A stretch of DNA of 64,000 nt from Candidatus Woesearchaeota archaeon (GCA_016180135.1 JACPBV010000004.1:26868-90867); one strand, 5' to 3'. Counted from the first letter of the stretch, positions 27,988 to 62,465 are shown. Notes: a model not told the origin generated them from the sequence alone. Translations and numbers: made by a program.

Positions 27988-28000
27988 GAAAAATCACAAA

Positions 28001-30507: not shown

Positions 30508-30530
30508 CCCAATAAATGGCGTATTTCTTT

Positions 30531-30655: not shown

Positions 30656-30705
30656 CTTCCTTCCACAACAAAGCTTATTAACCAAAAAGAAACACGGGAA
30701 ATAAA

Positions 30706-32274: not shown

Positions 32275-32305
32275 AACCCTTCATCAGGAAACTGTCAAAA
32301 ATAAG

Positions 32306-32620: not shown

Positions 32621-32627
32621 TTTCTTC

Positions 32628-32791: not shown

Positions 32792-32861
32792 GTTTCTTCA
32801 GGAAAATCAGGAATTTCCCCTCAAAACAAAAAGCCCCAAACCCCCCAATCCGAAAAAAGAA

Positions 32862-33800
32862 TCAGTTTTTCAGCAGCCTTCTGAAATAACTGATTGTCTC
32901 CCGCAGCCCATCATCCAGCTCTACCTTTGGCTCCCATCCAAGCTTCTCTTTTGCCAGGGAGATATCAGGGTTCCTCCTTTCAGGGTCATCTTCAGGCAGC
33001 GGCTTGAAGGAAATCTTTGATGTTGAGCCCGCTAAAGATATTATCTTTTCCGCAAGCTCAAGGATGGTGAGCTCATGGGGATTCCCCAGATTCACAGGGC
33101 CGATAAAATCAATAGTATTGTCCATCATGGTTATCATTCCGTCGACGAGGTCAGCGGCAAAGCAGAAGCTCCTGGTCTGCTTTCCCTTGCCGTAGATGGT
33201 TATCGGCTCATTCCGGAGCGCCTGCACGATGAAGTTAGACACAACCCTCCCGTCATCCATCGCCATGTTTGGCCCGTAGGTATTGAAGATCCTCACGATC
33301 CTGATCGGAATCTTATGCTCACGGTGGTAATCCATCATAAAGGTCTCCGCCACCCTCTTCCCTTCGTCATAGCACGCCCGTGGCCCGAGCATATTGACAT
33401 TGCCCGGGTATTTTTCAGTCTGGGGATGCACAGCAGGGTTCCCATAGACTTCAGATGTTGAAGCCTGCAGTATTTTTGCCCTGCACCTTTTTGCTATCCC
33501 GAGCATATGGAACATCCCTACCGTCGAAGTAAGCAGCGTCTTGATGGGGTCGAACTGGTAATGTTTCGGAGACGCCGGGCATGCCAGATTATAGATCTCA
33601 TCAACTTCCAGAACAATCGGCTGGATAATATCGTGCCTGGCCACCTCAAAATCTTTGTTCCCCATAAGATGGTTGATATTCCTCTGGCTCCCGGTAAAGA
33701 AATTGTCCAGGCAGATGACATGGCTGCCCTTCTTCAGGAGCGCTTCGCAGAGATGGCTGCCGATAAACCCTGCCCCGCCAGTGACCAAGATTGTTTTCAT
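32862..33800 (-). CDS. uxs: UDP-glucuronate decarboxylase (UDP-xylose synthase)
   Basis: [48 protein letters not shown] and YDEGKRVAE are all typical UXS motifs. Confidence 0.9.
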
Positions 33801-33872
33801 GAAAAGAAAGATTCCCCCGTTGTTTAAAAAGATTGCTGGGATTTAAGATGTAATCTCGGGATGCCAATACTT

Positions 33873-34274
33873 CTAACTGTGATGGTTGCTCTTCTCTGGG
33901 CTTTCCGCAGATTTTTCCCTTCTCGACAGGGCAAACGCCCCGATGCCTATTCCCAAGATCGGCAGCAGCCATGCCTGGTAAATTGCTGCCATCCCAATAA
34001 TCCTGAGATTATAGCCAATCACGCCAAAAAAAGCCATGCCTAAGATAGTTCCCATCACAAAACGCTCCAGGAAAGGCATTTCCTTCCGGAAAAGATACAG
34101 CAGAAAAAATCCCGGAATAACGAAAAGCCAGAAAAGCGACAAGCTCATCTTAAAGATGACAAAAAAACTTCCCCTGTAAAAAACAGCTTGAAGGAGGATA
34201 GCAGCTGCTGCAAACCCTAATCCTATCTTCTTCCCGTCTTCCTTAAGCTGTTGCAGCATTGCCAAAGCAGTCAA
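33873..34274 (-). CDS. small 4-TM membrane protein paired with the upstream GT-C-like gene
   Basis: It overlaps the 3-prime end of 34243-36009. ...VIPGFFLLYLFRKEMPFLERFVMGTILGMAFFGVIGY... is similar to the 32306-32620 product and to the N-terminus of the 4271 ORF. Confidence 0.45.
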   Translation of the reverse strand: MTALAMLQQLKEDGKKIGLGFAAAAILLQAVFYRGSFFVIFKMSLSLFWLFVIPGFFLLYLFRKEMPFLERFVMGTILGMAFFGVIGYNLRIIGMAAIYQAWLLPILGIGIGAFALSRREKSAESPEKSNHHS

Positions 34275-47211: not shown

Positions 47212-47502
47212 TTGGCTTCAAAAGAAGGCATGGAGACGGATGTAGACAGAGTTCTTGCTAGTGTCAGGAAGAAGCGTTTGCTGATGGAAGTCGAGGTCAA
47301 GGGCCTCATCGAGAAGAAGGAAGAGGAAATTTCCATCCCCTTAAGCATTTTCTCGGAGAGATTAGGCATGCTTGAGTCTATCGTTCATTATCTCAGGGAT
47401 TCTCATGGGCTTTCTTTTACAGAGATTGCAGGGCATCTAAAGCGGGACTACAAGACAGTCTGGGCGACATATCAGCAGGCAAAGAAAAAGTATAAGCGAT
47501 GA
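47212..47502 (+). CDS. small helix-turn-helix protein (sigma-70 region-4 / LuxR-like HTH), translationally coupled to the giant ORF
   Basis: LGMLESIVHYLRDSHGLSFTEIAGHLKRDYKTVWATYQQAKKK looks like an HTH. The stop overlaps the giant-ORF ATG (ATGA at 47499-47502). The start may be TTG 47212 or ATG 47230. A TATA-like ctttataaac lies at 47181-47190. Confidence 0.55.
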   Translation: MASKEGMETDVDRVLASVRKKRLLMEVEVKGLIEKKEEEISIPLSIFSERLGMLESIVHYLRDSHGLSFTEIAGHLKRDYKTVWATYQQAKKKYKR

Positions 47503-50500
47503 AACAATCCAGCAAAGTTAAGGAAATCAGCGCAGGCATAAGGGAGCTCAGGCTCTCAGGGAAAAATGCCGATAATGCCAGAAAGAGCTATGCAAGGCTG
47601 CTGGAAGCCTTGCTTCAGGAAAAAGAAAAACTGCAGTCTCATCTCAGCAAAGGGATTCTATCAGAGCAGAACTATGATCAGATTCTCCAGGAAAATCTTG
47701 ACGGCAAAACCAGGATGCAATGGATTGCCTATTGTGAAAATATCCTTGGCAGCGCAGATTCCAAAAAACAGCAGTATCGCCGATGGGTCGGAGTTCTTGA
47801 GGACGACATTGGCCGGATTAAACGATCTTTCAGGAAGGGAAGCATCTCCCAGGAAGCATACCATCATCTCCTGAACCAGAAGATTGAGGGAAAAACCAGG
47901 GAAGGATGGATTGTATCCGCAAAAATGGCGTTGTATGGTCTGGAAGAGGGTGAATCCCTGGCGGGCGCTCAGGGAATTTTAAGCCGCAGCGCATCGTCAG
48001 TAATCAGAGCATCAAAATCGCTGCTAGAAGAGAAAAAGGAACTCCTCGTTAACACCGCCCCTATAATATTGATGCTCTTGCTTCTCAGCCTCTCAGCTTT
48101 TTTTATCAGCCCGGCGCACACCGGATTTGCAGTCATAAGCATAGAGAATGGATTTGAGGATTCCTTAAACCTCTCCCTCAACGGGTCATCCTCATTCCTC
48201 TGGGCCCCGGCCAGCCACGGAATGATAACGAACATTGCAGTCAGCGGAAGGCTTTCAAAAGGTGCCGGAGCAAAAATCTACCTCGAAAAGGCCGGCAGGC
48301 TTTATCTGCTCCTTGATACTGAAGCTGGCTTGAAGACAGAAACAGTTTTGCAGGAAATTCCCGGCATTGCTGCTGGAATCAGTTCCCTCCCGCAGCAAAA
48401 GATCCCCCTCACCGGAGAGATTGAAAACCTATCTGTTGCCCTTATCGGCTCAGGGCCAGTTCAATCAGCAAATGATATATTTAAATTCGGCTTGAAGCAA
48501 AGGGCAGGATTAGACAACAGCTCTTCAGTCCCTGATGAGAACTTCTGCGCACTATGGAAAGTGAACAATGTTTCGGCAGAGTGCTATGGAAATGCTGACT
48601 GCTGCAGTTTTGCGGGCCTCGAAGCCAGTGGCTCCTGGAATGATACGTTCTACCTGTATTCCGGAAGATTCAGCGCAAAGAAAGACAATCTCATTGAGCC
48701 AATCCTTATCTCTTACGATGTCAATCTGAGCATCCCGAAGTCCGATATTAGGATTTCCTCCGCAGTTGCGGAAGCCCATTTTGCGGATGAGCTGGAGAGA
48801 TTCAGCCTTGCATGCATGGAAACGTGCAGCGGCCTGGAGTTTAACGAATCGCGATACTCTCTTGTTGTCTCTTTGGCAATTGGCTCGCTCATCCTTGACA
48901 GCATCTCTTACAAAATGGCCGAAAGCTATAACGTATCAGAAAATTCCCCTCTGCTCCAAAAGAACATCTCTAATGTGTCGCTCTACCAAAACGAAAACAT
49001 CACGTTAAGCCTTAATGATTTCTTTGCCGATGCAGACTCCGATGCGCTGGTATACTATGCTTATCCTGCAGAAAATATCAGCTTTTCTTTTTACCAGGGG
49101 AACATCACCGTCATCCCTGATAAGGATTTCCTCGGCAAAGCATCAACATTTTTTACTGCCTCAGACGGCTTTTTTAATGCCACTTCAGGAATAATTGATA
49201 TTGAGGTTGCTGAAAAGCCGCTCCTCCCGGCTCAGGTATCGGTCACCCAAACTCCCATAAAACCCAAGGTAAGGGTCAATGAGCCGGTGAAATGGGTTAC
49301 AAGAGTTAATTCCACCAGGAAAGTCATAAACCTCACGATGAGCCTGGCGCACGGGGCTGAGAACATCTCCGTCAGAGAATTGACTCAGGGCAGCATTGAT
49401 ACCTCAAGAGTCATTGATACATCCAAAGTGATTGATACATCCAAAGTGATTGATACCTCAAGAGTCATTGATACTGCTGGATTCATGAATCTTAAATCAG
49501 TATTTGTCAGCGAGCAGGGCCAGACTAAAAACCTCTCGCTCTATAATGCCGAAAAGTATTTGGCCAGGCTTGAATCCAGGGAGGAGATGCTTATTGAAAC
49601 CAAAAGGGGAAAGATTAAAAATGACCCGACGGAAATTGAAGCTCTGAAATCTCTTAACACCCAATTGCGTGATGTTGAAAACGAGAAAAACCGGATTACA
49701 GGATTTGTTGTTGCCCAAAGAGGGCAGAAAGGCATTATAACCCGATTTTTTGAATGGCTCATCCAATCAGACCTCGTCGGATTTGCCATCCTCAACGCCC
49801 CATTAGCTCCAATCACCACTCCCTCCACTAATCTCATCCCCACCCCCACAACTAATCACGCCACTAACTCCTTCCCCACTCCCTCCACTAATCTCATCCC
49901 CACCCCCACAACTAATCTTGAAGAGCCTGGCGAAAATGCCCATCCCCCAGTATTGACGATTGCCGAGGGGATTAAAGAAGCCGAGATTACTTATTTCACG
50001 GAAGCTCCGGTTGCCGAGGAATTCAATCTGTCAGAGTCAGGCAAGCGCATTATCATCAGCTCAGACATCCACTATGAAAACATTACGGCTTTCACTTACC
50101 TCCCCGGCGAATATGCCTCTTCAGGCATCCATCTGTATTGGATGAAAAACGGCTCAAGGGAAGAGGTAAATTTCACAGCATTTGATGAAAACAATAACGG
50201 CAGGATTGATTATATCGAATGGATCATCCCCTCGTTGTCAAACCAGACATATGATCTCTCCCTCACCATCATCACACTGAAGAGTTATCCTATCATTGGA
50301 AGAAACTGGACGACAGAGTTTAATGTTTCCGGCACAGCAAACCTCACGATCACTGCAGTCAACAGCACAAGTTTTGGCCAGGTCTACGTTGACAATTTCT
50401 CCTCGGAAGACGACCTCTATCTCAGGGAACTGAAATGCGGTAATCTCACCGTATGGAACAACGGCACAAATTATTCATCAGGCAATGTTTTCTTCGTCCT

Positions 50501-53500
50501 CAGCAATGGCACCGAGGCAGCCTGGAGCGAAACATTCGGAAACAGCCTTCCAGTAACTTCCTTAAAAGTTGTTGACTTCAGCTGCAGCAGTTCAGCGTAT
50601 CACATTGTCAAGGTTGAAACCCACGGGGACCATGTCCAGGAATTCACTTTTGGAAATATCACAAAATATGCTTACAATCATGCAGGGGGGACAGCATGCG
50701 GTTCAGACGGCCTCGGCTCAACCTGCCAGGGAGGGGGAAATGCCAGCCTTGACACGTGCATTGATACTGACAGCTCTAACACGCTTGATGGGTCGGATTT
50801 CTGCCATGGCGCTAACCAATGCCTTGATTCCCATATCGGCGCTTCCTGCAACTATGCCACCGGCCCGACATCAGGGCTCTGCGCCTACAACGGTGCAACC
50901 TCTGCAACCTGCTCAAACCTCGTAATCTCCGGGGAGTATGGCACAGGCATAACTGGCGGTTCTTCAGTAAACTTCCACAGCGGCAATGAAAATTCATCAT
51001 GCTCCCCTGCATCAGAGATGATGGTCTGCAATATCTCTACGGGATACAACCCTCAGGGCGGTGATCTCTGCCTCGACTCATCATGCACGGATCCTGCAAG
51101 CGGGATTGTTTCCCTTAACTGCATCGATCAATCCTGCTCAACGTCGGATGTCAGTGATGCGGCAGTATTCGGCGACTGTAATGCCACGGGCGGAGGCTGG
51201 GCCTGTGACAGCAGCCTTGGCTCATCAGGGTTTGCCCAGGACGGGATTTGCTCAGTGACCTCTGGATTTAACACCTATGGGTGCGCAGCTTCCGGATATA
51301 TCTGCAATGCTACCTCGGGCCCTTTTGCCGGAACTATCTTCAAAAATGGCTGCGGTGTTGGCATGGAGTGTTCAGACAACGATCCCTGCGACTCCTCATT
51401 GACAGACGGCAATTTCAATAAGGCAGCAGGCACATGCTCGGGCACAGACTGTGTCGGTGTCGCAGTTGCCAGCATCTATGCATTCAACCACTCTAAAACC
51501 TCGCCGACAAGCCTCTACCTCGTGAACGGCTCAGTGAACTCCTCCGTCATCAACGGAACAAATATAACCCATAATCAGACCTTAAACTTTACCCACCCGA
51601 CGTTTGGCCTTCGGCTCCAGATTATCGCAAACTTCTCAAGCTGGGATGTTGACATTTCCAACCTTACCATTGACGCAAACAACTTCAGCACTGCCGTGAA
51701 TTGGACATTTGTTGACCAGAGAGCTGTCCCCAAGAATCACACGCTCTACGTCCCCAACACCCTCCAGCTTGGCGTGTATGCATGCGGAACAGCAAACAGC
51801 ACAGGGGAAGTTTTCCCAAAATGCCCGAACAGGACGGTCTGGACGGACTCGGAATTGGGGGCAGGCTCGGTCGTCGTAAGGAATGGGCTCGTAGCGTATG
51901 AGCTTTCTAATCGTTACGTTGTCTCCAACCTTTCGGGCTCCGGAATAGGTCAGGGTGTTGCAGAATGCGGAGCGCTAAACCGTGAGAACGTCACCTATAA
52001 CCTCCTTCAGTCAGTCACTGATACTGACACCTGTTTCACAATCTCCGCCAATAATGTTACGCTTGACTGCAACAATTTTTCCATCACTTATGCAACTGCA
52101 GCTAACGGTAATGGCATCACCGTCAGCAATGTAAACAGGACAACGATCAGGAACTGCACCTTCATCAAGACCTCCGGTCAGGGCTCCTCATATGCCGTTC
52201 AGTTGTCTGGAGCAAACAATGCATCCATCAGCAACAGCTCATTCACTGCTGCTTCTTTAATTTCTTACCCGATTTACCTGACTTCATCCTCAAGGACAAA
52301 CCTGATTCAGAACAACAACATCACCGCTTCAGGAGGGAGCCCCGGAATCTATATTGATTCTTCCTCGGGACAGAACATCATCCTTAACAACAACATTACG
52401 ACTGTCGCAGCCTCGGCGCCTGCTGTTTACATCACTGGCTCTTCCAACAACACCCTTGACGGGAACAATATCACCACCGCCGGAAAAGCATCGTTCGGCA
52501 TACAGCTTGATGCCTCATCTTTTAACACAACTATAATCTTTAACAACATTACGACCGAAGGGAACTCATCTCACGCAGTCTATATCCTTGCAGCCTCAAA
52601 CTTTACCAAAGTATTGAAAAATGTAATCATCACAAAAGGATGGACATCATCCGGTATCATGATTTCTGATGCGTCATACAATATGGCCGAGAACAACTCC
52701 CTGGATATCCTCAACAGCACTAACGCAGCCTTTTACATCAACCAAAGCTCGCTTGCAAACAGCTTTTCAAAAAACAATGTGACTTTCTCAAGAGGGGACG
52801 CAATCCATATCATCTATGACCCGAAGCCGACCTCAGATGGGGGGCCTGTCCCGAGGTTCAATAATTTCTCGAACAACACGTTCTCCAATATATCCGGCTT
52901 TGACCTGATGCTCACCCCTATGATAAGTGCTCCCGGAGTTTCCCAGATAAACCTTACCACCCTGATTGACCAGCCCATAAAGAGATACAACTTCACCAAT
53001 TATGGCGGCTTGTTTGCCATAAGGTCATCCGAATTTGGGGAAATCGCTTTTTTCACCGTCATCAACGGCTCAGGAACAAATTTCAGCAATGATATTATCA
53101 TCAAAAATAATTCTATCACAGTTAATGCTTCAGCAGGGAATGGAATATTCAACAGCTCAGCAAACCTTACATTCTTTAACCTAGGGGACAGGGGCTTTGC
53201 CAATCCCGCCATTCTTTACAACGGTGGAACGTGTGATTTAACCACCTCCCCGCTCTGCCTGAACTTTACCGGCCTTACTGCTGCGACGGTCATCTTGAAT
53301 GTTACTCATTTCAGCAATTACAGCATCGGGGGTCAGGTTGATTTAAGCACACCTACTGTCTCTGTCATCTCGCCAACGCACAGGAACTACACGCTAAGGC
53401 AGATCGACTTCAACATTTCCCTGAATGAGGCAGGGAGCGCATGCAAAATGGCATTGGACAGCGAGGGAAATATCACGATGAGCGCTGTAAACAGCTCTTA

Positions 53501-59500: not shown

Positions 59501-62465
59501 AACACTCCCTGATTTTAATCAGGAAATTAACCTCCCCTCTACTGATGATCCTCAGTATACTCCTCCCGGGGATAATCCTCCATCAGAATTCCCATCTCCT
59601 CCAGTCAGTCCTCTTCCTCAGCTTCCCCTTATCCCCCTTTTCCCGCCATCATCTCCACCCATTGTTCCTCAGCTCCCGCTTATTCCTATCGCGCCTCTTT
59701 TCCCCTTCCTTCCGGAATTGCCTCCTGTCATTCAGCTTCCCCCGATTTATATCTTCCCGCCTGAAATCATTGTTCCTCAGCTTCCCCCTCAGCTGCCTTT
59801 GATTCCATTCCTTCCACAGCCGGCCCCGGAACTTATTCCTCAGCCGCCTTTGACACCTCCAGATCTGATTCCCCTTATGCCGCCGGAATTCCCTGCCCCG
59901 CCGGAACAGCCTGCTCCGGAATTAGTTCCGCCTCAGGAACCCATCATAAGTCCGGAATCTCCCGTCAGTCCGGTAGCCCCAATAACTCCAGAAGCACCTG
60001 TAACTCCGGAATCTCCGGAAACTCCAGAGCAATATGCTGAACGATTGAAAGATTTGGAAGCAGGCGCAAGAAGCATATCTGAAAACACATTCCCCTGCAG
60101 GTTCGCAAATATCACCAGCATTAATTCTTCAATTGCGCTTAAGAAAGGAAAAGTTACCAGGGAATACATCCCTAAAGGGTATGATCTTATTTTAGAGCCC
60201 TTCTTTGTTTCCTGCAGCGGCCAGTCCCTCCAGCTGACATTGAGCATTCCGGAAAACTACACTGATGTCCGGCTGTTTAAATGCGCCGAGGGAAAATGTG
60301 AGCCAAGGGCCCTTACCACGACCCAGGACCTGAGATGCCTCCCGAACGGCTCAAATGAGATCAGGCGCGTCAATGATTATCTTGAGCCAGAGTTCATCAA
60401 TGTCCAGACAAAAGAAGTTAAGGCAAATATCACCCAGCTCTCAACTATTCTGGCTTCAGGAAATAGGTCAGTCCAGTTTAAGGGCGGCGCTATAGAGAAC
60501 ATCACTGCCCAGCTGGTTAAGTCCCTTAACCCCGTGGAAGAGCCAAAGAACAAGTTTCTGAAGATTGTTGGCATCCCCCTTATCATCAAAGTGGGCGATG
60601 AGGGCAGCGTTGGGGACAGCCAGGGGGATAATCAAGAGGATAATCAAGAGGATAATCAAGAGGATAACCTTAGGGATAGCTATGAGGATATCAATGAGGA
60701 TAGCCATGAGGATAGCAATGGGAATAGCCGGGGGGACAGCAATGAAGTGAAGATCACACTCCCTTTCTCAAAAACCGATATTGGATATGTTGACGAAAAA
60801 AGCCTGTCGCTTTACGGGAAAGTCCCTGAAGGATGGTCATGGATTCCAAGCGCTATATCCTTGGACCATAGCTCTGTGTCAGCAGTTATCTCAAACATGA
60901 GCGCTTATCTTGATGGCAGCAGCACCGCTACCTTTGCTGTTATGGGAACAATCTGCCAGAACTGCACGAACACCGTGCTTGAGAGAGTTTACAACGGAAC
61001 CTCAAGGAAAGCATTGCTTTTGGTCCACGGCTTTGCAAGCTCCCCCGAAACATTCTCTGAGATCCTCGGAGATATCAGGCAGACAAAGCAGGAATTCCAG
61101 GTATGGACATTTGCTTACAGCTCCAGCCTGCCCCTGCAGCAGATTACCGATGAGCTGATAAGCCAGCTTCAGCGCAGTTCTTTTGAGTTCGACATCCTTT
61201 ACATCGGTGCCCACAGCCTCGGAGGCATTGTTGTCCAAAAAGCCCTTGACGATGCCTCGTCAAGAAACAAGGAAGTATTCACCTACTCCTTCCTGCCGAA
61301 AGTGAAAAAAGTCATTATCGCAGGAGCCCCTAATGAAGGCTCAATACTCTTAAGGGCCTATGAATCAATCTACAATTTCCTGATTAACCATGCAAGCAGG
61401 CTCAACAATCTTTTCAACCCAAGCCCCGACTTTGTTGAGATCCTCAGGAAAGGCCTGCTTGTCCCCCGCCTTGAGGGAGTTGAATATTATGTTATCGCAG
61501 GAACAAACCCTGATGAGTTCCCCGGATTCTTGAACCTCATCAGGGTCAATGACACCAACGACGGCCTTGTCACAGCAAAAAGCGCGCAGCATATCGGCGA
61601 TGCTGTCCTTGATGACCGCTGCGCTAATTTCTGGGACATCAATGTTTCCCACACGAAGCTTATCGATGATGACGTGTCAAGGAAGCTGATTGAGCGCATC
61701 GTCGCAAAAGAGATATTTCAGGAAGGCGATGACCTTGCTCTCGGCCATACGAAATATTTTGAAGTCAATGTCCCCTTGTGCAGGCCTGATGAAAAGTATA
61801 TCCTCATCGGAAAGCCGGTTCCTGCTGCGGCGATAGAAGACCCTACAGGATGCCTCTGCGGGAACGGTGTCTGCGGCATCGGTGAGACAGAGCTGAACTG
61901 CCCGTCAGACTGCTTTGTAAGTCTATCCCCTCAAAGATTCTTAACCGTCGGATGGCCGCTGTTCCTGCTGCTGCTTCTGTTGATGGGGTCAGGTGCAGTA
62001 TATCTTCAGCGGAGAAAGATTCATTACTGCGCTGAGCTTTCCTATTATCAATTCCTCCGGCAGGATTGGGCAGCGGTAAGGGGAATGCATGTGAAGAAAG
62101 CGGTCCAGGCATACCGCCGCCTGTTGCTCATCTATAGGGCGCTTCTCGGGCATGCCGGAAAGTTCCACCAGCTTGTCCTGTATTGGAAGGTAAAAAAAGT
62201 CTACACTGCCCTCATGGGATTGAGCATTGAGGAGCGGAAGCTTCTGGCCTTTGCCGATAAGGTCGAGGCAGCAGTCAGGCGCCGCCATCCTTCAGCCCAA
62301 AAACTTTATCGTTCATTGGAACAGCAATACGAGAGTCTCCTGCAGGAAAGGATTGCAGAGGAGAACAAAAAGCAGGGCCTGTTTGCCAGGCTGGCTATGA
62401 AACGAAGGGATAAAAAAATCTACGGAAGAGTCCTGGGGATTTACAGGCAGTTGAAAGGGAAGTAG
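47499..62465 (+). CDS. giant (4,988 aa) doubly anchored, sequon-rich multidomain surface protein
   Basis: A single uninterrupted ORF. There are hydrophobic anchors near both ends. In between are Cys-rich modules, parallel beta-helix (PbH1-like) repeats, a LamG-like lectin domain, Ig/FN3-like repeats, a Pro-rich linker and an alpha/beta-hydrolase domain (GAHSLGG). Confidence 0.9.
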   Translation: MKQSSKVKEISAGIRELRLSGKNADNARKSYARLLEALLQEKEKLQSHLSKGILSEQNYDQILQENLDGKTRMQWIAYCENILGSADSKKQQYRRWVGVLEDDIGRIKRSFRKGSISQEAYHHLLNQKIEGKTREGWIVSAKMALYGLEEGESLAGAQGILSRSASSVIRASKSLLEEKKELLVNTAPIILMLLLLSLSAFFISPAHTGFAVISIENGFEDSLNLSLNGSSSFLWAPASHGMITNIAVSGRLSKGAGAKIYLEKAGRLYLLLDTEAGLKTETVLQEIPGIAAGISSLPQQKIPLTGEIENLSVALIGSGPVQSANDIFKFGLKQRAGLDNSSSVPDENFCALWKVNNVSAECYGNADCCSFAGLEASGSWNDTFYLYSGRFSAKKDNLIEPILISYDVNLSIPKSDIRISSAVAEAHFADELERFSLACMETCSGLEFNESRYSLVVSLAIGSLILDSISYKMAESYNVSENSPLLQKNISNVSLYQNENITLSLNDFFADADSDALVYYAYPAENISFSFYQGNITVIPDKDFLGKASTFFTASDGFFNATSGIIDIEVAEKPLLPAQVSVTQTPIKPKVRVNEPVKWVTRVNSTRKVINLTMSLAHGAENISVRELTQGSIDTSRVIDTSKVIDTSKVIDTSRVIDTAGFMNLKSVFVSEQGQTKNLSLYNAEKYLARLESREEMLIETKRGKIKNDPTEIEALKSLNTQLRDVENEKNRITGFVVAQRGQKGIITRFFEWLIQSDLVGFAILNAPLAPITTPSTNLIPTPTTNHATNSFPTPSTNLIPTPTTNLEEPGENAHPPVLTIAEGIKEAEITYFTEAPVAEEFNLSESGKRIIISSDIHYENITAFTYLPGEYASSGIHLYWMKNGSREEVNFTAFDENNNGRIDYIEWIIPSLSNQTYDLSLTIITLKSYPIIGRNWTTEFNVSGTANLTITAVNSTSFGQVYVDNFSSEDDLYLRELKCGNLTVWNNGTNYSSGNVFFVLSNGTEAAWSETFGNSLPVTSLKVVDFSCSSSAYHIVKVETHGDHVQEFTFGNITKYAYNHAGGTACGSDGLGSTCQGGGNASLDTCIDTDSSNTLDGSDFCHGANQCLDSHIGASCNYATGPTSGLCAYNGATSATCSNLVISGEYGTGITGGSSVNFHSGNENSSCSPASEMMVCNISTGYNPQGGDLCLDSSCTDPASGIVSLNCIDQSCSTSDVSDAAVFGDCNATGGGWACDSSLGSSGFAQDGICSVTSGFNTYGCAASGYICNATSGPFAGTIFKNGCGVGMECSDNDPCDSSLTDGNFNKAAGTCSGTDCVGVAVASIYAFNHSKTSPTSLYLVNGSVNSSVINGTNITHNQTLNFTHPTFGLRLQIIANFSSWDVDISNLTIDANNFSTAVNWTFVDQRAVPKNHTLYVPNTLQLGVYACGTANSTGEVFPKCPNRTVWTDSELGAGSVVVRNGLVAYELSNRYVVSNLSGSGIGQGVAECGALNRENVTYNLLQSVTDTDTCFTISANNVTLDCNNFSITYATAANGNGITVSNVNRTTIRNCTFIKTSGQGSSYAVQLSGANNASISNSSFTAASLISYPIYLTSSSRTNLIQNNNITASGGSPGIYIDSSSGQNIILNNNITTVAASAPAVYITGSSNNTLDGNNITTAGKASFGIQLDASSFNTTIIFNNITTEGNSSHAVYILAASNFTKVLKNVIITKGWTSSGIMISDASYNMAENNSLDILNSTNAAFYINQSSLANSFSKNNVTFSRGDAIHIIYDPKPTSDGGPVPRFNNFSNNTFSNISGFDLMLTPMISAPGVSQINLTTLIDQPIKRYNFTNYGGLFAIRSSEFGEIAFFTVINGSGTNFSNDIIIKNNSITVNASAGNGIFNSSANLTFFNLGDRGFANPAILYNGGTCDLTTSPLCLNFTGLTAATVILNVTHFSNYSIGGQVDLSTPTVSVISPTHRNYTLRQIDFNISLNEAGSACKMALDSEGNITMSAVNSSYYNFTNVSVSTAFHNVTFFCNDTSNNFGIVTGYFRVSINATCAFGLNCSQHFGLDACVDTTADNTPDSCQNETRDCASYIGKSCDLSNNSQGICTNNSRCEGNLLVAGEYGLGIVGGSLGDFHSGNETAGCSGGTEAMICNASINSSYSPKAWSYCADNSCIEPATTSAVSFDCKDNECSIADISAAAFQPSCVSGWACDSPVNGSGWSQDGICDSSGTPQCIIDGRGNVCNSSSGTLVNSSCGSSCAANDPCDATLADGNFNRSYGACQGSSCTQITANGKPSVSVPAFNTSSPSSTDVIRAQVNYSDPDANQGDVFIFWFSNNTNIYNRTFSRVSNGSVLNATLGPLNFTRGRVINVTVNATDGQLYSLTNASIPLTIGNAPPALASPALNISTPSEIDSIKVNTTYSDQDNDTGSVNITWYVNQVPKFNQSFQGVANGTVLTSNFSLGNFNETDKINVSIIANDSSSNGSLVWSRSAIITPGPNVSSCGNLSLNQTTFTLQQDVSAAQTCFSLSGEDIVFDCAGKSINYSSGYWGSAFNNSLGFSNITIKNCVINQQNQTAGSSPALDIKNAENMTIQNVSITTFGSSSYAISIDTGQNITISGSTLKTNGSNAFAIYLTGGRGNITIINNTIETNGSAADGIDSTGVDSQNIFGNTITVRGADSRAIDPGVSDDNSIKANIINASGADAYGISVGGASHIDNTVGNNIIDLYGTGSIGIFLGVDGFASHANNTITARGSSSIGIDISNTRYTEIYNNTINISGSSGRGIRSDTTPDNMNIRENLITITGSGGMGAYLKQATSFNFTNNTILVNAGTSTGIYTETSSALNISLNTINATGSSTRAVVIWRTERSVFKYNNITYAGLDAFFIDNGNGNSYYNNFTGNSIGGSGGHDFFFDDPNILGTRFIDQTVREINLTTGGMEMYIENTTFGEIYFFKNTTGDSVDLNSNLIIGNNTVSVNSASIPGFNTSANISLYALGSRGFSVPVILRDSDTVCNRTSAPQCTNFTGLDANVVRFNVTSWSNFSIADSGVSTPSIYFPANGKNHSSVPYLNFSSFDSNGNPITYNVYINGTLNATTTTNITSWNASDGYYNMTVSASAGGLGSANATYTFFRKDGVQPSFADNQTNVTSAKINDIIQFNLTVMDNASGLSYYLFSWNGTGAWDNLTNASLTGAGRKLVLNKTLAVSSGNTIGYRWFVNDSAGNMNETETRIFSIGNTAPNLTAPQLNDSSLYASEDIQASATYEDADGSAGTVVFQWFRNNSLIFNQSFHGLANGTTPYSNLSRSNYSAGDLINVSVFANDSSQASAVVNMNINALTVQETEVPQIRFIGPTPPNGTKTPINFTVVNISLEESNLNILKLDWNGSNYTLFNNTLVLALNFDNRSSLGENNSLVKDISRNYYPGILSGPVFGSASGIYGGAYTFDGLDDNITFPHTGHFDINNGSFTMESWIKMNPNATGPRHIMGKRSDDGGNWTRLYSLDGDVRFEFTGGVAVQAPGPFNDTLWHYIIATRLANGTSILYVDANLTYAGTNPGNVSNQANFTIGRWSYENSFNGTIDEVRFWNRSFTEKEVNITYHSNLKKLNQSGYGLIYNATGLLDNRTYNYSAYAQDDAGNENRTETRSISIDATPPSFSLNQTNASQAAKNGNISFNITLADSFTGLSFYLFSWNGTGAWENLTNGSLSAASSQSLSLNKSTNLTNGSVVAYQWFANDSAGNKNSSGEGSFIIINAAPSTPVVAAPVSGSNLTNVAINFSSSDTDGHQITFRIFINNTLNITTTANITAWNASDGFYNLTITATDGSTSSQNSTVIFFRLDTTAPGFSGNQTNSSAARQDGNITFNITMTDLGAGLSSFIFSWNGTGAWENLTNGSLNGASSQFLNINKSPAVAANKVVGYRWYANDSANNFNSTETGTFSILPTCGDSLCDSSEATSCAADCDWCGDSVCSSGETCSSCSSDCGSCPGGEYHSPAPSPPSSAPGSGYSAPPNVQPPSVTLPDFNQEINLPSTDDPQYTPPGDNPPSEFPSPPVSPLPQLPLIPLFPPSSPPIVPQLPLIPIAPLFPFLPELPPVIQLPPIYIFPPEIIVPQLPPQLPLIPFLPQPAPELIPQPPLTPPDLIPLMPPEFPAPPEQPAPELVPPQEPIISPESPVSPVAPITPEAPVTPESPETPEQYAERLKDLEAGARSISENTFPCRFANITSINSSIALKKGKVTREYIPKGYDLILEPFFVSCSGQSLQLTLSIPENYTDVRLFKCAEGKCEPRALTTTQDLRCLPNGSNEIRRVNDYLEPEFINVQTKEVKANITQLSTILASGNRSVQFKGGAIENITAQLVKSLNPVEEPKNKFLKIVGIPLIIKVGDEGSVGDSQGDNQEDNQEDNQEDNLRDSYEDINEDSHEDSNGNSRGDSNEVKITLPFSKTDIGYVDEKSLSLYGKVPEGWSWIPSAISLDHSSVSAVISNMSAYLDGSSTATFAVMGTICQNCTNTVLERVYNGTSRKALLLVHGFASSPETFSEILGDIRQTKQEFQVWTFAYSSSLPLQQITDELISQLQRSSFEFDILYIGAHSLGGIVVQKALDDASSRNKEVFTYSFLPKVKKVIIAGAPNEGSILLRAYESIYNFLINHASRLNNLFNPSPDFVEILRKGLLVPRLEGVEYYVIAGTNPDEFPGFLNLIRVNDTNDGLVTAKSAQHIGDAVLDDRCANFWDINVSHTKLIDDDVSRKLIERIVAKEIFQEGDDLALGHTKYFEVNVPLCRPDEKYILIGKPVPAAAIEDPTGCLCGNGVCGIGETELNCPSDCFVSLSPQRFLTVGWPLFLLLLLLMGSGAVYLQRRKIHYCAELSYYQFLRQDWAAVRGMHVKKAVQAYRRLLLIYRALLGHAGKFHQLVLYWKVKKVYTALMGLSIEERKLLAFADKVEAAVRRRHPSAQKLYRSLEQQYESLLQERIAEENKKQGLFARLAMKRRDKKIYGRVLGIYRQLKGK
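48058..48117 (+). other. N-terminal transmembrane anchor of the giant protein
   Basis: The hydrophobic run PIILMLLLLSLSAFFISPA follows about 185 aa of charged, Lys/Glu-rich sequence. Confidence 0.7.
49395..49475 (+). repeat. in-frame 18-nt tandem repeat (IDTS[RK]V x4.5) in the giant ORF
   Basis: attgatacctcaagagtc / attgatacatccaaagtg / attgatacatccaaagtg / attgatacctcaagagtc / attgatactgct.... Confidence 0.9.
49817..49917 (+). repeat. in-frame 60-nt-period repeat (perfect 41-nt core x2; TPSTNLIPTPTTN)
   Basis: cactccctccactaatctcatccccacccccacaactaatc occurs at 49817-49857 and 49877-49917. Confidence 0.85.
50685..51465 (+). other. Cys-rich module 1 of the giant protein
   Basis: GGTACGSDGLGSTCQGG...CIDTDSSNTLDGSDFCHGANQCLDSHIGASC...GTDCVG. 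It is homologous to module 2 at 53615-54335. Confidence 0.7.
52032..52820 (+). other. parallel beta-helix (PbH1-like) repeat region 1
   Basis: A period of about 22-23 aa, e.g. NNNITASGGSPGIYIDSSSGQNIILNNNITTVAASAPAVYITGSSNNTLDGNNITTAGKASFGIQLD. Confidence 0.7.
53615..54335 (+). other. Cys-rich module 2 of the giant protein
   Basis: ATCAFGLNCSQHFGLDACVDTTADNTPDSCQNETRDCASYIGKSC...GSSCTQ is collinear with module 1. Confidence 0.7.
55035..56180 (+). other. parallel beta-helix (PbH1-like) repeat region 2
   Basis: ITIKNCVINQ...NVSITTFGSSSYAISIDTGQNITISGSTLKTNGSNAFAIYLTGGRGNITIINNTIETNGSAADGID... has periodic N-x-I/T turns. Confidence 0.7.
57639..58235 (+). other. LamG / concanavalin-A-like lectin domain (Laminin_G_3-type)
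   Basis: LALNFDN...GGAYTFDGLDDNITFPH...FTMESWIKMN...WHYIIATR...LYVDANL...FNGTIDEVRFWNRSFTEKEV is the canonical pattern. Confidence 0.8.
60612..60743 (+). repeat. in-frame 12-nt tandem repeat (11 units, 3 near-perfect) encoding an acidic [DE]-[DS]-x-[QNE] tract
   Basis: ggggataatcaa gaggataatcaa gaggataatcaa gaggataacctt ... translates to GDNQEDNQEDNQEDNLRDSYEDINEDSHEDSNGNSRGDSN. Confidence 0.85.
61011..61672 (+). other. alpha/beta-hydrolase (lipase/esterase, PGAP1-like) domain
   Basis: LLLVHGFASSPETF (oxyanion region), the nucleophile elbow GAHSLGG (61206-61226), and later NDGLV and SH as candidate Asp/His. Confidence 0.7.
61941..62007 (+). other. C-terminal transmembrane anchor of the giant protein
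   Basis: WPLFLLLLLLMGSGAVYL is followed by RRK and about 150 aa of basic helical tail. Confidence 0.7.

What the first reader, a model, noticed from the sequence alone, without database searches (positions are those of the whole stretch)
51481..51840. Extreme N-glycosylation sequon density in the giant protein, next to a 36-kb glycosylation island
- In the ~115 aa encoded here I count 14 N-x-S/T sequons: NHS, NGS, NSS, NGT, NIT, NQT, NFT, NFS, NLT, NFS, NWT, NHT, NST, NRT.
- Similar density is visible by eye through most of the ectodomain.
- The cytoplasmic N- and C-terminal parts have almost none.
- The window also encodes four GT-C-like polytopic enzymes, a Wzx flippase and lipid-carrier GT2 enzymes.

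This protein is therefore a plausible principal acceptor for the island's products. That link is inference.
Basis: partly seen in the sequence, partly recalled or inferred. Interest (0 to 1): 0.7.

Follow-up and report, generated by a model that had tools for sequence, protein, structure and literature searches.

The report
Sequon-saturated giant DPANN surface protein
A 4,988-residue, doubly membrane-anchored surface protein of a Woesearchaeota (DPANN) archaeon carries 256 N-glycosylation motifs, three times more than chance, so it is very probably coated in sugars; this is typical of its protein family, and no link to the nearby sugar-gene cluster could be shown.

Summary
All 14 listed sequons lie in window 51481-51840. 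The ORF 47499-62465 (4,988 aa) has 256 N-x-S/T (x not P) against 87-96 in shuffles (z about 20). The mirror motif and D/Q-x-S/T are not enriched. Pro is excluded at X and depleted at +3. Sequon Asn and the +2 Ser/Thr are better conserved than other Asn and Ser/Thr in orthologs and internal paralogs. The other 38 ORFs of the window have 0.26 sequons per 100 aa.

The organism is a Woesearchaeota archaeon (a neighbouring protein is 100% identical to NCBI HYU14_00350). The protein belongs to a large DPANN family of giant beta-helix/LamG/Ig-like surface proteins. Its 150 best homologs have a median of 4.9 sequons per 100 aa, so the density is high in absolute terms but normal for the family. Many predicted N-glycosylation sites in DPANN beta-helix surface proteins are already published.

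Dense N-glycosylation is well supported but not demonstrated. The link to the gene cluster is not supported:
- the cluster ends 11.5 kb upstream, behind unrelated genes;
- the window holds no STT3/AglB;
- five relatives' giant genes have no such cluster within 10 kb.

Side result: ORF 4271-6202 is a conserved DPANN GT-C enzyme whose best structural matches are oligosaccharyltransferase (OST) catalytic subunits.

The parts
47499..62465 (+). Giant ORF: 4,988 aa, about 536 kDa, 256 N-x-S/T sequons
   Evidence: Uninterrupted ORF. Sequon statistics; mass.
47499..48056 (+). N-terminal predicted cytoplasmic domain (aa 1-186), K/R-rich and helical, 0 sequons
   Evidence: No hydrophobic segment occurs before aa 187. 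No significant Pfam match. No homolog was found for aa 1-1000.
48057..48122 (+). TM1, a signal-anchor (aa 187-208), followed by a TGFAV motif
   Evidence: Hydropathy maximum of 2.25; position.
48123..59279 (+). Sequon-rich distal ectodomain (aa 209-3927): 244 sequons, 6.56 per 100 aa
   Evidence: Shuffle expectation 85.6 +/- 8. Every folded module is enriched 1.5- to 5-fold; only the aa 701-870 linker is not.
51480..51998 (+). Conserved all-beta module (aa 1328-1500) that contains the flagged stretch
   Evidence: 72% identical to P0004 residues 1212-1384 and 37-43% identical to P0005, P0006, P0011 and P0019. Asn and Thr are invariant at N82-x-T84 and N94-x-T96 while X varies. The AlphaFold2 model has pLDDT 53.7 and gave no fold match.
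50712..51545 (+). Cys-rich module 1 (aa 1072-1349); its paralog is at 53610-54422 (aa 2038-2308)
   Evidence: Self-BLAST gives 40-41% identity.
51948..53360 (+). Right-handed beta-helix 1 (aa 1484-1954)
   Evidence: Pfam Beta_helix/NosD. 33 sequons against 14.8 expected.
54951..56624 (+). Right-handed beta-helix 2 (aa 2485-3042), a paralog of beta-helix 1
   Evidence: 34 sequons against 15.6 expected.
57792..58238 (+). LamG / concanavalin-A-like lectin domain (aa 3432-3580), flanked by repeated modules with weak Pfam matches to bacterial Ig-like domains
   Evidence: Pfam Laminin_G_3, E 1.2e-20. Weak Big_13 and Big_3_3 matches. Repeats.
59280..60029 (+). Cys knot plus Pro-rich stalk (aa 3928-4177), no sequons
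60030..61952 (+). Conserved C-terminal extracellular module (aa 4178-4818): beta-rich region, acidic repeat, alpha/beta-hydrolase-like domain (AHSLG at aa 4571-4575), CGNGxCGxGE knot
   Evidence: 34% identical over 95% of its length to P0001, a complete 942-aa protein with precomputed weak DUF7379 and Abhydrolase_6 hits. Weak DUF7379 match.
61953..62006 (+). TM2 (aa 4819-4836), followed by RRK
62007..62465 (+). C-terminal predicted cytoplasmic helical tail (aa 4837-4988) plus stop codon, 0 sequons
281..36009 (.). Glycosylation gene cluster: four Glycos_transf_1-family (GT4-type) enzymes, two GT2, one GT9, four polytopic GT-C-like proteins, a Wzx flippase, a flippase-like LPG_synthase_TM protein, nucleotide-sugar enzymes, methyltransferases, an AsnB-like enzyme, a radical-SAM enzyme, a deacetylase and a CDP-alcohol phosphatidyltransferase. 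It is not shown to act on the giant protein.
   Evidence: Pfam and NCBIfam matches. GC content is uniform across the window.
4271..6202 (+). GT-C_A-fold enzyme (643 aa) of a family conserved in DPANN archaea; its best structural matches are OST catalytic subunits
   Evidence: 100% identical to NCBI HYU14_00350; 675 homologs. Model pLDDT 88, pTM 0.90. Foldseek matches to STT3, DPY19, PglB, AglB and ArnT. No STT3 sequence match.
3297..4271 (-). AglJ-like GT2 that would charge a lipid-phosphate carrier with a sugar
   Evidence: Best NCBIfam match is TIGR04182 (AglJ), E 2e-48, below the equivalog cut-off.
6331..7761 (-). Wzx/AglR-type flippase
   Evidence: Pfam Polysacc_synt, E 8e-36.

Best explanation
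ORF 47499-62465 encodes a roughly 536-kDa cell-surface protein of a Woesearchaeota (DPANN) archaeon. It belongs to the widespread DPANN family of giant beta-helix/LamG/Ig-like surface proteins.

Predicted topology:
- an N-terminal cytoplasmic domain (aa 1-186);
- a signal-anchor helix (aa 187-208);
- an ectodomain of about 4,600 aa;
- a second transmembrane helix (aa 4819-4836);
- a cytoplasmic tail.

The distal 3,700 aa of the ectodomain carry 244 N-x-S/T sequons that selection has maintained. The most likely mechanism is this. As the chain is exported through Sec, an AglB-type oligosaccharyltransferase encoded outside this window transfers lipid-linked glycans to most of these Asn residues. 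The result is a dense N-glycan coat on an adhesin-like, carbohydrate-binding scaffold. The coat would keep the protein soluble, extended and protease-resistant, and would present or mask surfaces during contact with a host cell.

Shown here: the sequon statistics, the conservation, the predicted topology and the family membership. Inferred: actual glycosylation, the transferase responsible, the biological role, and any contribution of the 36-kb cluster.
For: **Sequon excess and motif specificity**
- 256 sequons against 87-96 in shuffles (z 19-23). The mirror motif and the D/Q controls are flat.
- The excess holds outside the beta-helices: 189 sequons in 3,554 aa.
- NxT is enriched 4-fold and NxS 2.2-fold.
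- Pro occurs 0 times at X and once at +3, against 7.6 expected for each. D/Q-x-S/T triplets show no such depletion.

**Conservation**
- Sequon Asn is conserved in 142 of 208 aligned positions, non-sequon Asn in 74 of 166 (Fisher p 5e-6).
- The +2 Ser/Thr is kept at 56-95% across the eight alignments, against 20-61% for other Ser/Thr.
- In the flagged module, Asn and Thr are invariant while X varies, across 37-72% identical homologs.

**Location and background**
- There are no sequons before aa 224 or after aa 4715.
- The other window ORFs have 0.26 sequons per 100 aa.

**Organism and family**
- The window carries an archaeal SRP RNA.
- Its XPD helicase is 59% identical to that of a Woesearchaeota metagenome-assembled genome (MAG).
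- A neighbouring protein is 100% identical to an NCBI Woesearchaeota protein.
- Aa 1072-2000 has 1,699 homologs. The named ones among the top hits are giant proteins of Woesearchaeota, Pacearchaeota and Nanoarchaeota.
- The 150 best homologs have a median of 4.9 sequons per 100 aa and a median observed/expected ratio (O/E) of 1.9.

**Literature**
- AglB occurs in DPANN archaea (PMC8993221).
- The cultivated DPANN archaeon Nanobdella has aglBDE and beta-helix surface proteins with 36-52 predicted N-glycosylation sites (bioRxiv 10.1101/2023.10.27.564410).
Against: - There is no experimental evidence of glycosylation.
- No oligosaccharyltransferase gene lies in the 64-kb window, and the rest of the genome could not be searched.
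- Beta-solenoid repeats have an intrinsic N-x-[ST]-like register, and the two beta-helices contribute 67 of the 256 sequons.
- Internal duplications mean the 256 sites are not independent. About 57 sequon positions are shared between aligned paralog pairs.
- Some archaeal homologs (Aenigmarchaeota, Altiarchaeales) show no excess (O/E 0.7-1.2), so enrichment is not universal in the fold family.
- The topology rests on hydropathy only.
Confidence: 0.75

Rival explanations
1. The giant protein is N-glycosylated, but the 36-kb cluster makes a different glycoconjugate. Candidates are an inositol-phospholipid-anchored lipoglycan or glycolipid, an exopolysaccharide, or O-linked sugars. The proximity of cluster and gene would then be incidental in a small genome.
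For: - The cluster contains a CDP-alcohol phosphatidyltransferase that resembles archaetidylinositol-phosphate synthase.
- It also holds GT4 enzymes, a GT2 that charges a lipid-phosphate carrier, and several GT-C enzymes. From established knowledge, this is the logic of mycobacterial PIM/LM/LAM synthesis.
- The same core recurs in a distant Nanoarchaeota locus (L020) with no giant gene in view: a GT-C, a Wzx flippase, a PMT_2 enzyme, an LPG_synthase_TM protein and a CDP-OH_P_transf enzyme.
- The window has no AglB.
- Unrelated genes fill the 11.5 kb between the cluster and the giant gene.
- The linkage is absent in five relatives.
Against: - An AglJ-like GT2, a Wzx/AglR-like flippase, soluble GTs, methyltransferases and nucleotide-sugar enzymes are also the standard content of archaeal agl clusters (established knowledge of Haloferax and Methanococcus agl genes).
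- No other glycan-synthesis locus of this genome is known, because the rest of the genome was not examined.
Confidence: 0.4
2. The sequon excess is a structural or compositional by-product, not a set of glycosylation sites. Possible sources are the Asn/Ser/Thr-rich beta-solenoid register and polar-x-polar periodicity on exposed beta-strands.
For: - The protein has 9.3% Asn and 19.4% Ser+Thr.
- X is preferentially hydrophobic (Ile, Phe, Leu, Val), as expected on beta-strands.
- Beta-helix repeats carry NNxIT-like units.
- At least one conserved 'sequon', N158-L159, is kept as NLK in one homolog, so that Asn is structural.
Against: - Shuffles within 30-aa blocks keep local composition and still give only 96 sequons.
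- Beta-strand periodicity should equally raise [ST]-x-N, D-x-[ST] and Q-x-[ST], yet none is raised.
- Enrichment is stronger outside the beta-helices (3- to 5-fold) than inside them (2.2-fold).
- Homologs of the same fold range from O/E 0.56 to 2.67.
- Pro is avoided at X and +3 only around Asn.
- Asn and the +2 Ser/Thr are conserved together while X varies.
Confidence: 0.1
3. The sequons are glycosylated by a non-canonical transferase encoded in the cluster rather than by a classical AglB. The candidate is the GT-C_A enzyme at 4271-6202, conserved in DPANN archaea, or one of its three polytopic neighbours.
For: - The model is confident (pLDDT 88, pTM 0.90).
- Its best PDB matches are OST catalytic subunits: STT3A and Stt3 at E 1e-9 to 3e-8, PglB at 8e-7 and AglB at 1.7e-5.
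- An acidic loop, YLEDDDPW, is partly invariant (E126 and D129 invariant) across 47 homologs.
- The gene lies next to a Wzx flippase here and in the distant locus L020.
- The window has no STT3.
Against: - TM-scores are only about 0.45-0.49. DPY19, ArnT and AftA, which transfer single sugars, match almost as well.
- There is no WWDxG motif, which recognises the sequon in known OSTs.
- There is no sequence similarity to STT3 or to any solved GT-C.
- Some homologs carry precomputed PMT or DUF6541 labels or a GT39 name.
- The gene sits beside a GT2 that charges a lipid carrier with a single sugar. That arrangement is typical of ArnT/PMT/AglS-type enzymes.
- AglB is reported in DPANN archaea.
Confidence: 0.07

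Closest known systems
Giant beta-helix / LamG surface proteins of Woesearchaeota, Pacearchaeota and Nanoarchaeota (for example NCBI MBI2139890.1 = P0004, 6,160 aa; MBI2138972.1 = P0005)
   Same: - 42-46% identity over aa 1072-2000, and 72% over the flagged module.
- The same modules: Cys-rich module, conserved all-beta module, PbH1-type (parallel beta-helix repeat) beta-helix, LamG, Ig-like repeats.
- An N-terminal signal-anchor followed by a TGF[AV]V motif.
- The same sequon density: 4.5-7.9 per 100 aa, O/E 2.3-2.5.
   Different: - The N-terminal 1,000 aa have no detectable homolog.
- The C-terminal end is a different module (DUF7379-like hydrolase, TM helix, cytoplasmic tail), shared with only three database proteins.
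- Its O/E of 2.97 is above that of all 150 homologs examined (maximum 2.67).
[quoted passage not shown]
   Same: These are DPANN surface proteins with a beta-helix, Ig-like folds and 36-52 predicted N-glycosylation sites in 908-1,320 aa. That is about 3-6 per 100 aa (my arithmetic from the two reported ranges). aglB, aglD and aglE are present in that genome.
   Different: - They are four to five times shorter.
- Homology to this protein was not tested here.
- Their site counts are also predictions, not measurements.
Densely N-glycosylated archaeal S-layer glycoproteins, for example Sulfolobus acidocaldarius SlaA
   Same: Both are extracellular archaeal proteins whose sequons are used by AglB. 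The density in SlaA is described as remarkable (31 sites; PMC5744192).
   Different: - By my arithmetic SlaA has about 2.2 sequons per 100 aa, against 6.6 per 100 aa over 3,700 aa here.
- There is no evidence that this protein forms a lattice.
- It is membrane-anchored at both ends and is built from adhesin and lectin modules.
Nanohaloarchaeal giant 'SPEARE' proteins (PMC10266531)
   Same: Both are giant (8,900-9,400 aa) membrane-anchored DPANN ectoproteins with Ig-like repeats, proposed to mediate contact with the host.
   Different: No VirB4/TraG-like ATPase domain or any other SPEARE-specific domain was detected here. The protein is not a member of that family.
Haloferax volcanii AglD/AglJ - AglR - AglS step and agl gene clusters
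   Same: The cluster holds an AglJ-like GT2, a Wzx/AglR-like flippase, GT-C enzymes of PMT_2 type, methyltransferases, a UDP-sugar dehydrogenase and nucleotidyltransferases. This content matches an agl pathway with extracellular finishing steps. The comparison with AglS rests on my own knowledge.
   Different: - No AglB is in or near the cluster.
- All NCBIfam matches are below the equivalog cut-offs.
- There are four GT-C-like proteins and a CDP-alcohol phosphatidyltransferase, which agl clusters do not usually contain.
Viral glycan shields (HIV-1 gp120)
   Same: The sequon density is comparable, with selection for sequon number (abstract of PMC2920574). It may work in a similar way: a glycan coat that masks or stabilises an exposed receptor-binding protein.
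   Different: This is an analogy only. There is no homology, the glycosylation machinery is different, and no adaptive immune pressure acts here.

Membership tests
DPANN giant beta-helix/LamG surface proteins | Parallel beta-helix (PbH1/NosD) repeats in a protein of several thousand residues | tested here: met
   Pfam Beta_helix E 6e-15 (5 stretches) and NosD E 2e-10 (4 stretches); 4,988 aa.
DPANN giant beta-helix/LamG surface proteins | Sequence homology to named Woesearchaeota, Pacearchaeota or Nanoarchaeota proteins | tested here: met
   P0004 matches with E 0 and 46% identity over 929 aa. There are 140 hits at E <= 1e-30. The names come from NCBI records.
DPANN giant beta-helix/LamG surface proteins | LamG / concanavalin-A-like domain and Ig-like repeats | tested here: met
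   Laminin_G_3 E 1.2e-20. The Ig-like Pfam matches are only weak. The repeats are shown by self-comparison.
DPANN giant beta-helix/LamG surface proteins | Export signal or membrane anchor | tested here: met
   Hydropathy finds two TM-like segments, at aa 187-208 and 4819-4836. This is a prediction only.
AglB-dependent archaeal N-glycoprotein | N-x-S/T sequons (x not Pro) on an extracytoplasmic segment, beyond chance | tested here: met
AglB-dependent archaeal N-glycoprotein | An STT3/AglB oligosaccharyltransferase in the same genome | not testable with these tools
   None lies in the 64-kb window. The rest of the MAG could not be fetched. Its presence in DPANN archaea is known from the literature only.
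AglB-dependent archaeal N-glycoprotein | Glycan demonstrated on Asn | not testable with these tools
   This needs glycoproteomics.
Archaeal agl (N-glycosylation) gene cluster | The cluster encodes or adjoins AglB | tested here: not met
   No WWDxG motif and no Pfam STT3 match at E <= 10. There is none within 10 kb of the homologous cluster in L020.
Archaeal agl (N-glycosylation) gene cluster | A GT2 that charges dolichol phosphate, a flippase, and soluble GTs and sugar-modifying enzymes | tested here: met
   Best NCBIfam match is AglJ (TIGR04182), E 2e-48, below the cut-off. Polysacc_synt/Wzx. Glycos_transf_1-family (GT4-type) enzymes, epimerases, a dehydrogenase and methyltransferases.
Archaeal agl (N-glycosylation) gene cluster | Conserved linkage with its acceptor gene | tested here: not met
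   Five relatives' giant genes have no cluster within 10 kb. The test is limited to 10-kb flanks; the distance in this window is 11.5 kb.
STT3/AglB/PglB oligosaccharyltransferases (tested for ORF 4271-6202) | GT-C_A fold | tested here: met
   The AlphaFold2 model has pLDDT 88 and pTM 0.90. Foldseek matches STT3A, Stt3, PglB and AglB at E 1e-9 to 2e-5.
STT3/AglB/PglB oligosaccharyltransferases (tested for ORF 4271-6202) | WWDxG sequon-binding motif and the STT3 sequence signature | tested here: not met
   No WWDxG motif. No Pfam STT3 match at E <= 10. A profile of 47 homologs finds no solved GT-C by sequence.
Nanohaloarchaeal SPEARE giant proteins | VirB4/TraG-like ATPase (or protease/nuclease) domain within the giant protein | tested here: not met
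   No such Pfam match in the whole protein or in six sub-segments.

The most novel reading that the evidence does not exclude
Woesearchaeota and Nanoarchaeota carry a conserved GT-C_A enzyme family that current family libraries do not classify for this protein (here ORF 4271-6202). Its fold is closest to OST catalytic subunits. It lacks every STT3 sequence motif and sits next to a Wzx flippase in both loci examined. In this reading it is a non-canonical protein glycosyltransferase, possibly an oligosaccharyltransferase, that decorates the sequon-saturated giant surface proteins. Those proteins would then rank among the most densely N-glycosylated proteins known and would form the cell's glycocalyx.
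Probability: 0.07. Interest if true: 0.85.

Novelty: new member of a known kind. Interest (0 to 1): 0.4.

Why it matters
DPANN archaea are tiny, mostly uncultivated symbionts, and their giant surface proteins are the leading candidates for host attachment. If about 250 glycans decorate one 536-kDa protein, sugar could add a large fraction to the mass of the molecule. Glycans, rather than bare protein, would then dominate the surface that meets the host, viruses and proteases.

That would shape how these proteins are modelled, purified and detected. It would also explain why a small genome spends 36 kb on glycan synthesis.

The family-wide pattern gives concrete targets for glycoproteomics. The median is 4.9 sequons per 100 aa in 150 homologs, and individual sites are invariant across 37-72% identical proteins. 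The GT-C enzyme with an OST-like fold is a separate lead for how DPANN archaea glycosylate their envelopes.

Tried and rejected
- **Exact look-up of the giant protein** in the contig index: not on record.
- **Homolog search with the full 4,988 aa:** timed out.
- **Homolog search with aa 1-1000:** no hit at E <= 1e-5. The N-terminal cytoplasmic domain and the first ectodomain remain orphans.
- **Synteny through the XPD helicase.** Eight Woesearchaeota/Nanoarchaeia loci were fetched. None has a giant ORF beside the helicase. The closest one (59% identity) is cut on the relevant side.
- **P0004, the closest homolog:** its 44.6-kb contig could not be fetched.
- **Natural control (bacterial versus archaeal homologs).** I hoped the homologs without sequon excess would be bacterial. 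Those that carry names are Aenigmarchaeota and Altiarchaeales, so there is no clean control.
- **Fold of the flagged module.** The AlphaFold2 model from six sequences has pLDDT 53.7, and Foldseek against the PDB gave nothing below E 0.1. I can say only that it is an all-beta domain.
- **PDB sequence searches:** nothing for ORF 34243-36009, ORF 4271-6202, the hydrolase-like region, or the A2 profile.
- **AglB search:** no WWD[YWFN]G motif in 264 kb of fetched relatives' loci.
- **ORF upstream of the giant gene (46284-46913):** not homologous to the small ORFs that precede the giant genes in L013 and L015.
- **Rejected: 'genomic island' in the sense of horizontal transfer.** GC content is a uniform 45-52% across the window.
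- **Rejected: membership in the SPEARE family.** No ATPase domain was found.
- **Abu-Qarn and Eichler 2007** (residues around archaeal sequons) is not held in the paper library, so the flanking-residue preferences could not be compared with it.


Full report
**1. What is at the coordinates**

Window 51481-51840 lies inside a single uninterrupted ORF, 47499-62465 on the + strand, of 4,988 aa and about 536 kDa. The flagged stretch is aa 1328-1448.

**2. Source organism**

- The window carries an archaeal SRP RNA at 62939-63211.
- Its XPD helicase (43239-45143) is 59% identical to that of 'Candidatus Woesearchaeota archaeon NC_groundwater_265'. It is 37-46% identical to those of other Woesearchaeota and Nanoarchaeia.
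- The protein of ORF 4271-6202 is 100% identical to NCBI 'hypothetical protein HYU14_00350 [Candidatus Woesearchaeota archaeon]', which sits on a 117,852-bp contig.
- The window is therefore part of a published DPANN metagenome-assembled genome (MAG).

**3. Is the sequon density more than chance?**

Yes, by every control I could run.
- The protein has 256 N-x-S/T (x not P). Global shuffles give 86.6 +/- 7.3. Shuffles confined to 30-aa blocks, which keep local composition, give 96.4 +/- 8.3 with a maximum of 118.
- The flagged 121 aa have 14 against 3.4 +/- 1.5.
- Four controls sit at or below expectation: the mirror motif [ST]-x-N, the shifted motif N-x-x-[ST], and D-x-[ST] and Q-x-[ST]. This excludes simple polar-x-polar periodicity on beta-strands and N/S/T richness as explanations.
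- NxT is enriched 4-fold and NxS 2.2-fold.
- Within aa 211-3955, Pro never occupies X in 244 N-x-[ST] triplets (7.6 expected, p 5e-4). It occurs once at +3 (7.6 expected, p 0.004). D/Q-x-[ST] triplets show no Pro avoidance. These are the known constraints on oligosaccharyltransferase (OST) acceptor sites. Pro exclusion at X is documented in PMC8342417 (abstract). Avoidance at +3 rests on my own knowledge.
- The 38 other ORFs of the window hold 35 sequons in 13,347 aa (0.26 per 100 aa), slightly below their compositional expectation of 43.5.

**4. Map of the protein**

| Segment | Residues | Sequons |
|---|---|---|
| Cytoplasmic N-terminal domain | 1-186 | 0 |
| Signal-anchor TM1 | 187-208 | 0 |
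| Distal ectodomain | 209-3927 | 244 (6.56 per 100 aa) |
| Cys knot and Pro-rich stalk | 3928-4177 | 0 |
| Conserved C-terminal module | 4178-4818 | 12 |
| TM2 | 4819-4836 | 0 |
| Cytoplasmic tail | 4837-4988 | 0 |

- The distal ectodomain contains two copies of a cassette made of a Cys-rich module and a right-handed beta-helix. The Cys-rich modules are at aa 1072-1349 and 2038-2308. The beta-helices are at aa 1484-1954 and 2485-3042.
- It also contains repeated modules with weak Ig-like Pfam matches and a LamG domain (aa 3432-3580).
- The C-terminal module has a weak DUF7379/alpha-beta-hydrolase match, an AHSLG motif and a CGNGxCGxGE knot.
- Every folded module of the distal ectodomain is enriched 1.5- to 5-fold; only the aa 701-870 linker is not. 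The beta-helices show the lowest ratio among the significantly enriched modules (2.2-fold), and the Cys-rich module 1 excess (1.5-fold) is not significant.
- Outside the beta-helices there are still 189 sequons in 3,554 aa. The beta-solenoid register therefore cannot be the main cause.

The empty cytoplasmic ends are uninformative by themselves, because fewer than one sequon is expected there.

**5. Evolutionary evidence that the sequons matter**

- I pooled two orthologous alignments (P0004 and P0005, 46-47% identity) and six internal paralog alignments. Sequon Asn is conserved in 142 of 208 cases, non-sequon Asn in 74 of 166 (Fisher p 5e-6).
- The +2 Ser/Thr is retained as Ser/Thr in 56-95% of cases across the eight alignments, against 20-61% for other Ser/Thr.
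- In the Ig-like repeats, which are about 50% identical, 17 of 19 and 13 of 17 sequons sit at the same position. In the beta-helices only 12 of 32 do, yet the density is maintained.
- The flagged stretch belongs to a conserved all-beta module (aa 1328-1500). This module is 72% identical to a second cassette of P0004 and 37-43% identical to modules of four other proteins.
- Within that module, N82-x-T84 and N94-x-T96 have invariant Asn and Thr while X varies (W, V, K, I and H, Y).
- One conserved Asn (N158-L159) is kept as NLK in one homolog, so it is structural rather than a glycosylation site.

**6. Family context**

- Aa 1072-2000 finds 1,699 proteins at E <= 0.001, of which 140 are at E <= 1e-30. 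Many are 2,000-7,600 aa long.
- Those with names are 'right-handed parallel beta-helix repeat-containing' or 'LamG domain-containing' proteins of Woesearchaeota, Pacearchaeota and Nanoarchaeota.
- The 150 best homologs have a median of 4.9 sequons per 100 aa (5th-95th percentile 2.5-6.7, maximum 7.85). Their median observed/expected ratio (O/E) is 1.9, and their mirror-motif O/E is 1.13.
- This protein's density (5.13 per 100 aa) is ordinary for the family. Its O/E of 2.97 is above that of all 150 homologs (maximum 2.67).
- In a crude census of ORFs from this window and 12 related loci, predicted surface ORFs have O/E 2.05 (5.05 per 100 aa). Polytopic membrane proteins have O/E 0.84.
- Named homologs without excess are Aenigmarchaeota and Altiarchaeales. 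The fold does not impose the excess, but a clean bacterial control is missing.
- The C-terminal 821 aa have only three homologs, at about 34% identity. One is a complete 942-aa protein with the same hydrolase, knot, TM helix and tail. Another sits downstream of a sequon-rich partial ORF with 4.2 sequons per 100 aa.
- The first 1,000 aa have no homolog. The giant proteins are modular mosaics.

**7. The 'island' and the proposed link**

ORFs from 281 to 36009 do form a glycosylation cluster. It contains:
- glycosyltransferases: four of the Glycos_transf_1 (GT4-type) family, two GT2 (one with AglJ as best match) and one GT9;
- a Wzx flippase and an LPG_synthase_TM flippase-like protein;
- nucleotide-sugar enzymes: two nucleotidyltransferases, four epimerase/dehydratase-family enzymes (one of them GDP-mannose 4,6-dehydratase) and a UDP-Glc/GDP-Man dehydrogenase;
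- modifying enzymes: an AsnB-like amidotransferase, five methyltransferases, a radical-SAM/SPASM enzyme and a polysaccharide deacetylase;
- a CDP-alcohol phosphatidyltransferase;
- four polytopic proteins.

GC content is uniform, so nothing marks the cluster as foreign DNA.

The four polytopic proteins are supported to different degrees:

| ORF | Evidence |
|---|---|
| 15938-17926 | Pfam DUF2079 (GT-C clan membership is from my own knowledge) |
| 30706-32274 | Just reaches the PMT_2 and DUF6541 cut-offs |
| 4271-6202 | Confident GT-C_A model (details below) |
| 34243-36009 | Only weakly related to the others |

Details for 4271-6202:
- It has no family match by sequence. A 47-sequence alignment nevertheless gives a confident model (pLDDT 88, pTM 0.90).
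- The model's best PDB matches are STT3A and Stt3 (E 1e-9 to 3e-8, TM about 0.47). DPY19, PglB, AglB, AftA and ArnT follow.
- The acidic loop YLEDDDPW is conserved, with E126 and D129 invariant.
- There is no WWDxG motif and no STT3 sequence signal.

The link to the giant gene fails the tests I could apply.
- No STT3/AglB is encoded in the window.
- The cluster ends 11.5 kb upstream of the giant gene. The genes between them lie on both strands: an Fe-S biogenesis protein, a copper-type P-type ATPase, PCMT, the XPD helicase, a cupredoxin and two unknown ORFs.
- Giant homologs in five other DPANN contigs are flanked by housekeeping or unknown genes. At most a single GT2 gene lies within 10 kb.
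- A homologous cluster core recurs in a distant Nanoarchaeota contig with no giant gene in view. The core comprises the DUF6541-like GT-C, the Wzx flippase, a PMT_2 enzyme, an LPG_synthase_TM protein, GT2 enzymes and a CDP-OH_P_transf enzyme.
- The 10-kb flanks limit this test.

The cluster's content fits an agl-type N-glycan pathway with extracellular finishing steps (AglD/AglJ - AglR - AglS logic). It fits equally well an inositol-lipid-anchored lipoglycan pathway or O-glycosylation by PMT-like enzymes.

**8. Most likely mechanism**

- Shown here: a giant, modular protein predicted to be surface-exposed, whose exposed part is saturated with sequons that are conserved and obey OST acceptor rules.
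- From the literature: DPANN archaea possess AglB (PMC8993221 citing Nikolayev 2020; Nanobdella aglBDE).
- Inferred: the chain is exported through Sec with a signal-anchor. An AglB encoded elsewhere glycosylates most sequons. The second TM helix stops transfer, so both ends stay in the cytoplasm.
- Inferred: the beta-helix, LamG and Ig-like modules act in adhesion or carbohydrate recognition at the host interface. The glycan coat provides solubility, stiffness, protease resistance and masking.
- Whether the 36-kb cluster supplies the glycan is an open question. I put it at roughly 0.35-0.5.

**9. Comparison with what is known, and novelty**

- Giant DPANN surface proteins are known (PMC10266531).
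- Beta-helix DPANN surface proteins with 36-52 predicted N-glycosylation sites per 908-1,320 aa have been reported.
- Dense N-glycosylation of archaeal surface proteins is textbook. SlaA's 31 sites, about 2.2 per 100 aa by my arithmetic, are called remarkable.
- This protein is a new, extreme-sized member of a known kind. What may be new in degree is the family-wide density of about 5-8 per 100 aa over thousands of residues. I found no systematic description of it in the papers searched.
- The protein is not a SPEARE protein, because it has no ATPase domain.
- Nothing indicates that it is an S-layer lattice protein.

**10. Verdict**

N-glycosylation of the protein is the best explanation (confidence 0.75) but remains undemonstrated. 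The proposed functional link to the neighbouring cluster is unsupported. Interest is moderate. The most valuable leads are the concrete, conserved sites for glycoproteomics and the DPANN-wide GT-C enzyme with an OST-like fold.

Noticed in passing
window 4271-6202 (+): This 643-aa polytopic protein has no Pfam, NCBIfam or PDB sequence match. It belongs to a family of at least 675 proteins conserved across Woesearchaeota and Nanoarchaeota. A confident AlphaFold2 model (pLDDT 88) matches OST catalytic subunits (STT3, PglB, AglB) best, with DPY19, ArnT and AftA close behind. The acidic loop YLEDDDPW is conserved (E126 and D129 invariant), and there is no WWDxG motif.
   Followed up: partly
window 14962-15657 (-) and L020 13401-14219: A CDP-alcohol phosphatidyltransferase that resembles archaetidylinositol-phosphate synthase sits inside the glycosylation cluster. 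This holds both here and in a distant Nanoarchaeota cluster. It hints that the cluster may build a lipid-anchored glycan.
   Followed up: no
L020 (Nanoarchaeota contig, 21.9 kb): The core of the cluster is conserved at 46% identity of the GT-C: a DUF6541-like GT-C directly followed by a Wzx flippase, with a PMT_2 GT-C, an LPG_synthase_TM protein, GT2 enzymes and sugar aminotransferases. This locus adds NeuB/CMP-sugar genes.
   Followed up: partly
window 62939-63211 (+): Archaeal SRP RNA (Rfam RF01857, 155.6 bits), immediately downstream of the giant gene.
   Followed up: yes
window 63243-63808 (-) and 10811-11588 (-): There are two type II toxin-antitoxin pairs. A PemK/MazF-like toxin with a MazE/AbrB-like antitoxin lies downstream of the giant gene. 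A PIN_3 toxin with a MazE-like antitoxin is embedded in the glycosylation cluster.
   Followed up: partly
window 48111-48131 (aa 205-211) and 49767-49787 (aa 757-763): The motif TGFAV/TGFVV follows the N-terminal TM helix here and in homologs P0004 and P0032 (as TGYAV), and as TGMAI in P0006. It recurs at aa 757-763 after a charged helical stretch. The surrounding aa 701-870 segment is the only part of the distal ectodomain without sequon excess. This may be the fossil of a fusion of two genes.
   Followed up: no
window 62007-62462 (aa 4837-4988); C-termini of P0003, P0006, P0038: Several DPANN giant proteins end in a TM helix followed by a helical cytoplasmic tail that is rich in Tyr and Leu (for example ...LY..L..LY...). 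In the giant protein both ends are predicted to be cytoplasmic, so a loop of about 4,600 aa would be held at both ends.
   Followed up: no
window 49394-49474 and 60625-60745: In-frame tandem repeats. An 18-bp unit repeated 4.5 times encodes IDTS[RK]V. Units of 12 and 24 bp encode an acidic D/N/Q/E-rich stretch that is absent from homolog P0001. These may be length-variable spots.
   Followed up: no
L004 3-6661: A relative of the C-terminal module is preceded by an overlapping, sequon-rich ORF of 1,019 aa (4.2 sequons per 100 aa, KYNSTG(S/W)Q(L/R)WN-type repeats) that is cut by the contig end. This is probably one giant gene split by a frameshift or an assembly error.
   Followed up: no
P0120 (Aenigmarchaeota cluster), P0093/P0165 (Altiarchaeales): Archaeal homologs of the beta-helix region show no sequon excess (O/E 0.7-1.2). 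Sequon saturation may therefore be lineage-specific within the archaea that carry this fold.
   Followed up: partly
window 47499-62465: The exact 4,988-aa product is not on record in the contig index, although neighbouring proteins of the same MAG are. The gene may be split, truncated or unannotated in the public record.
   Followed up: no
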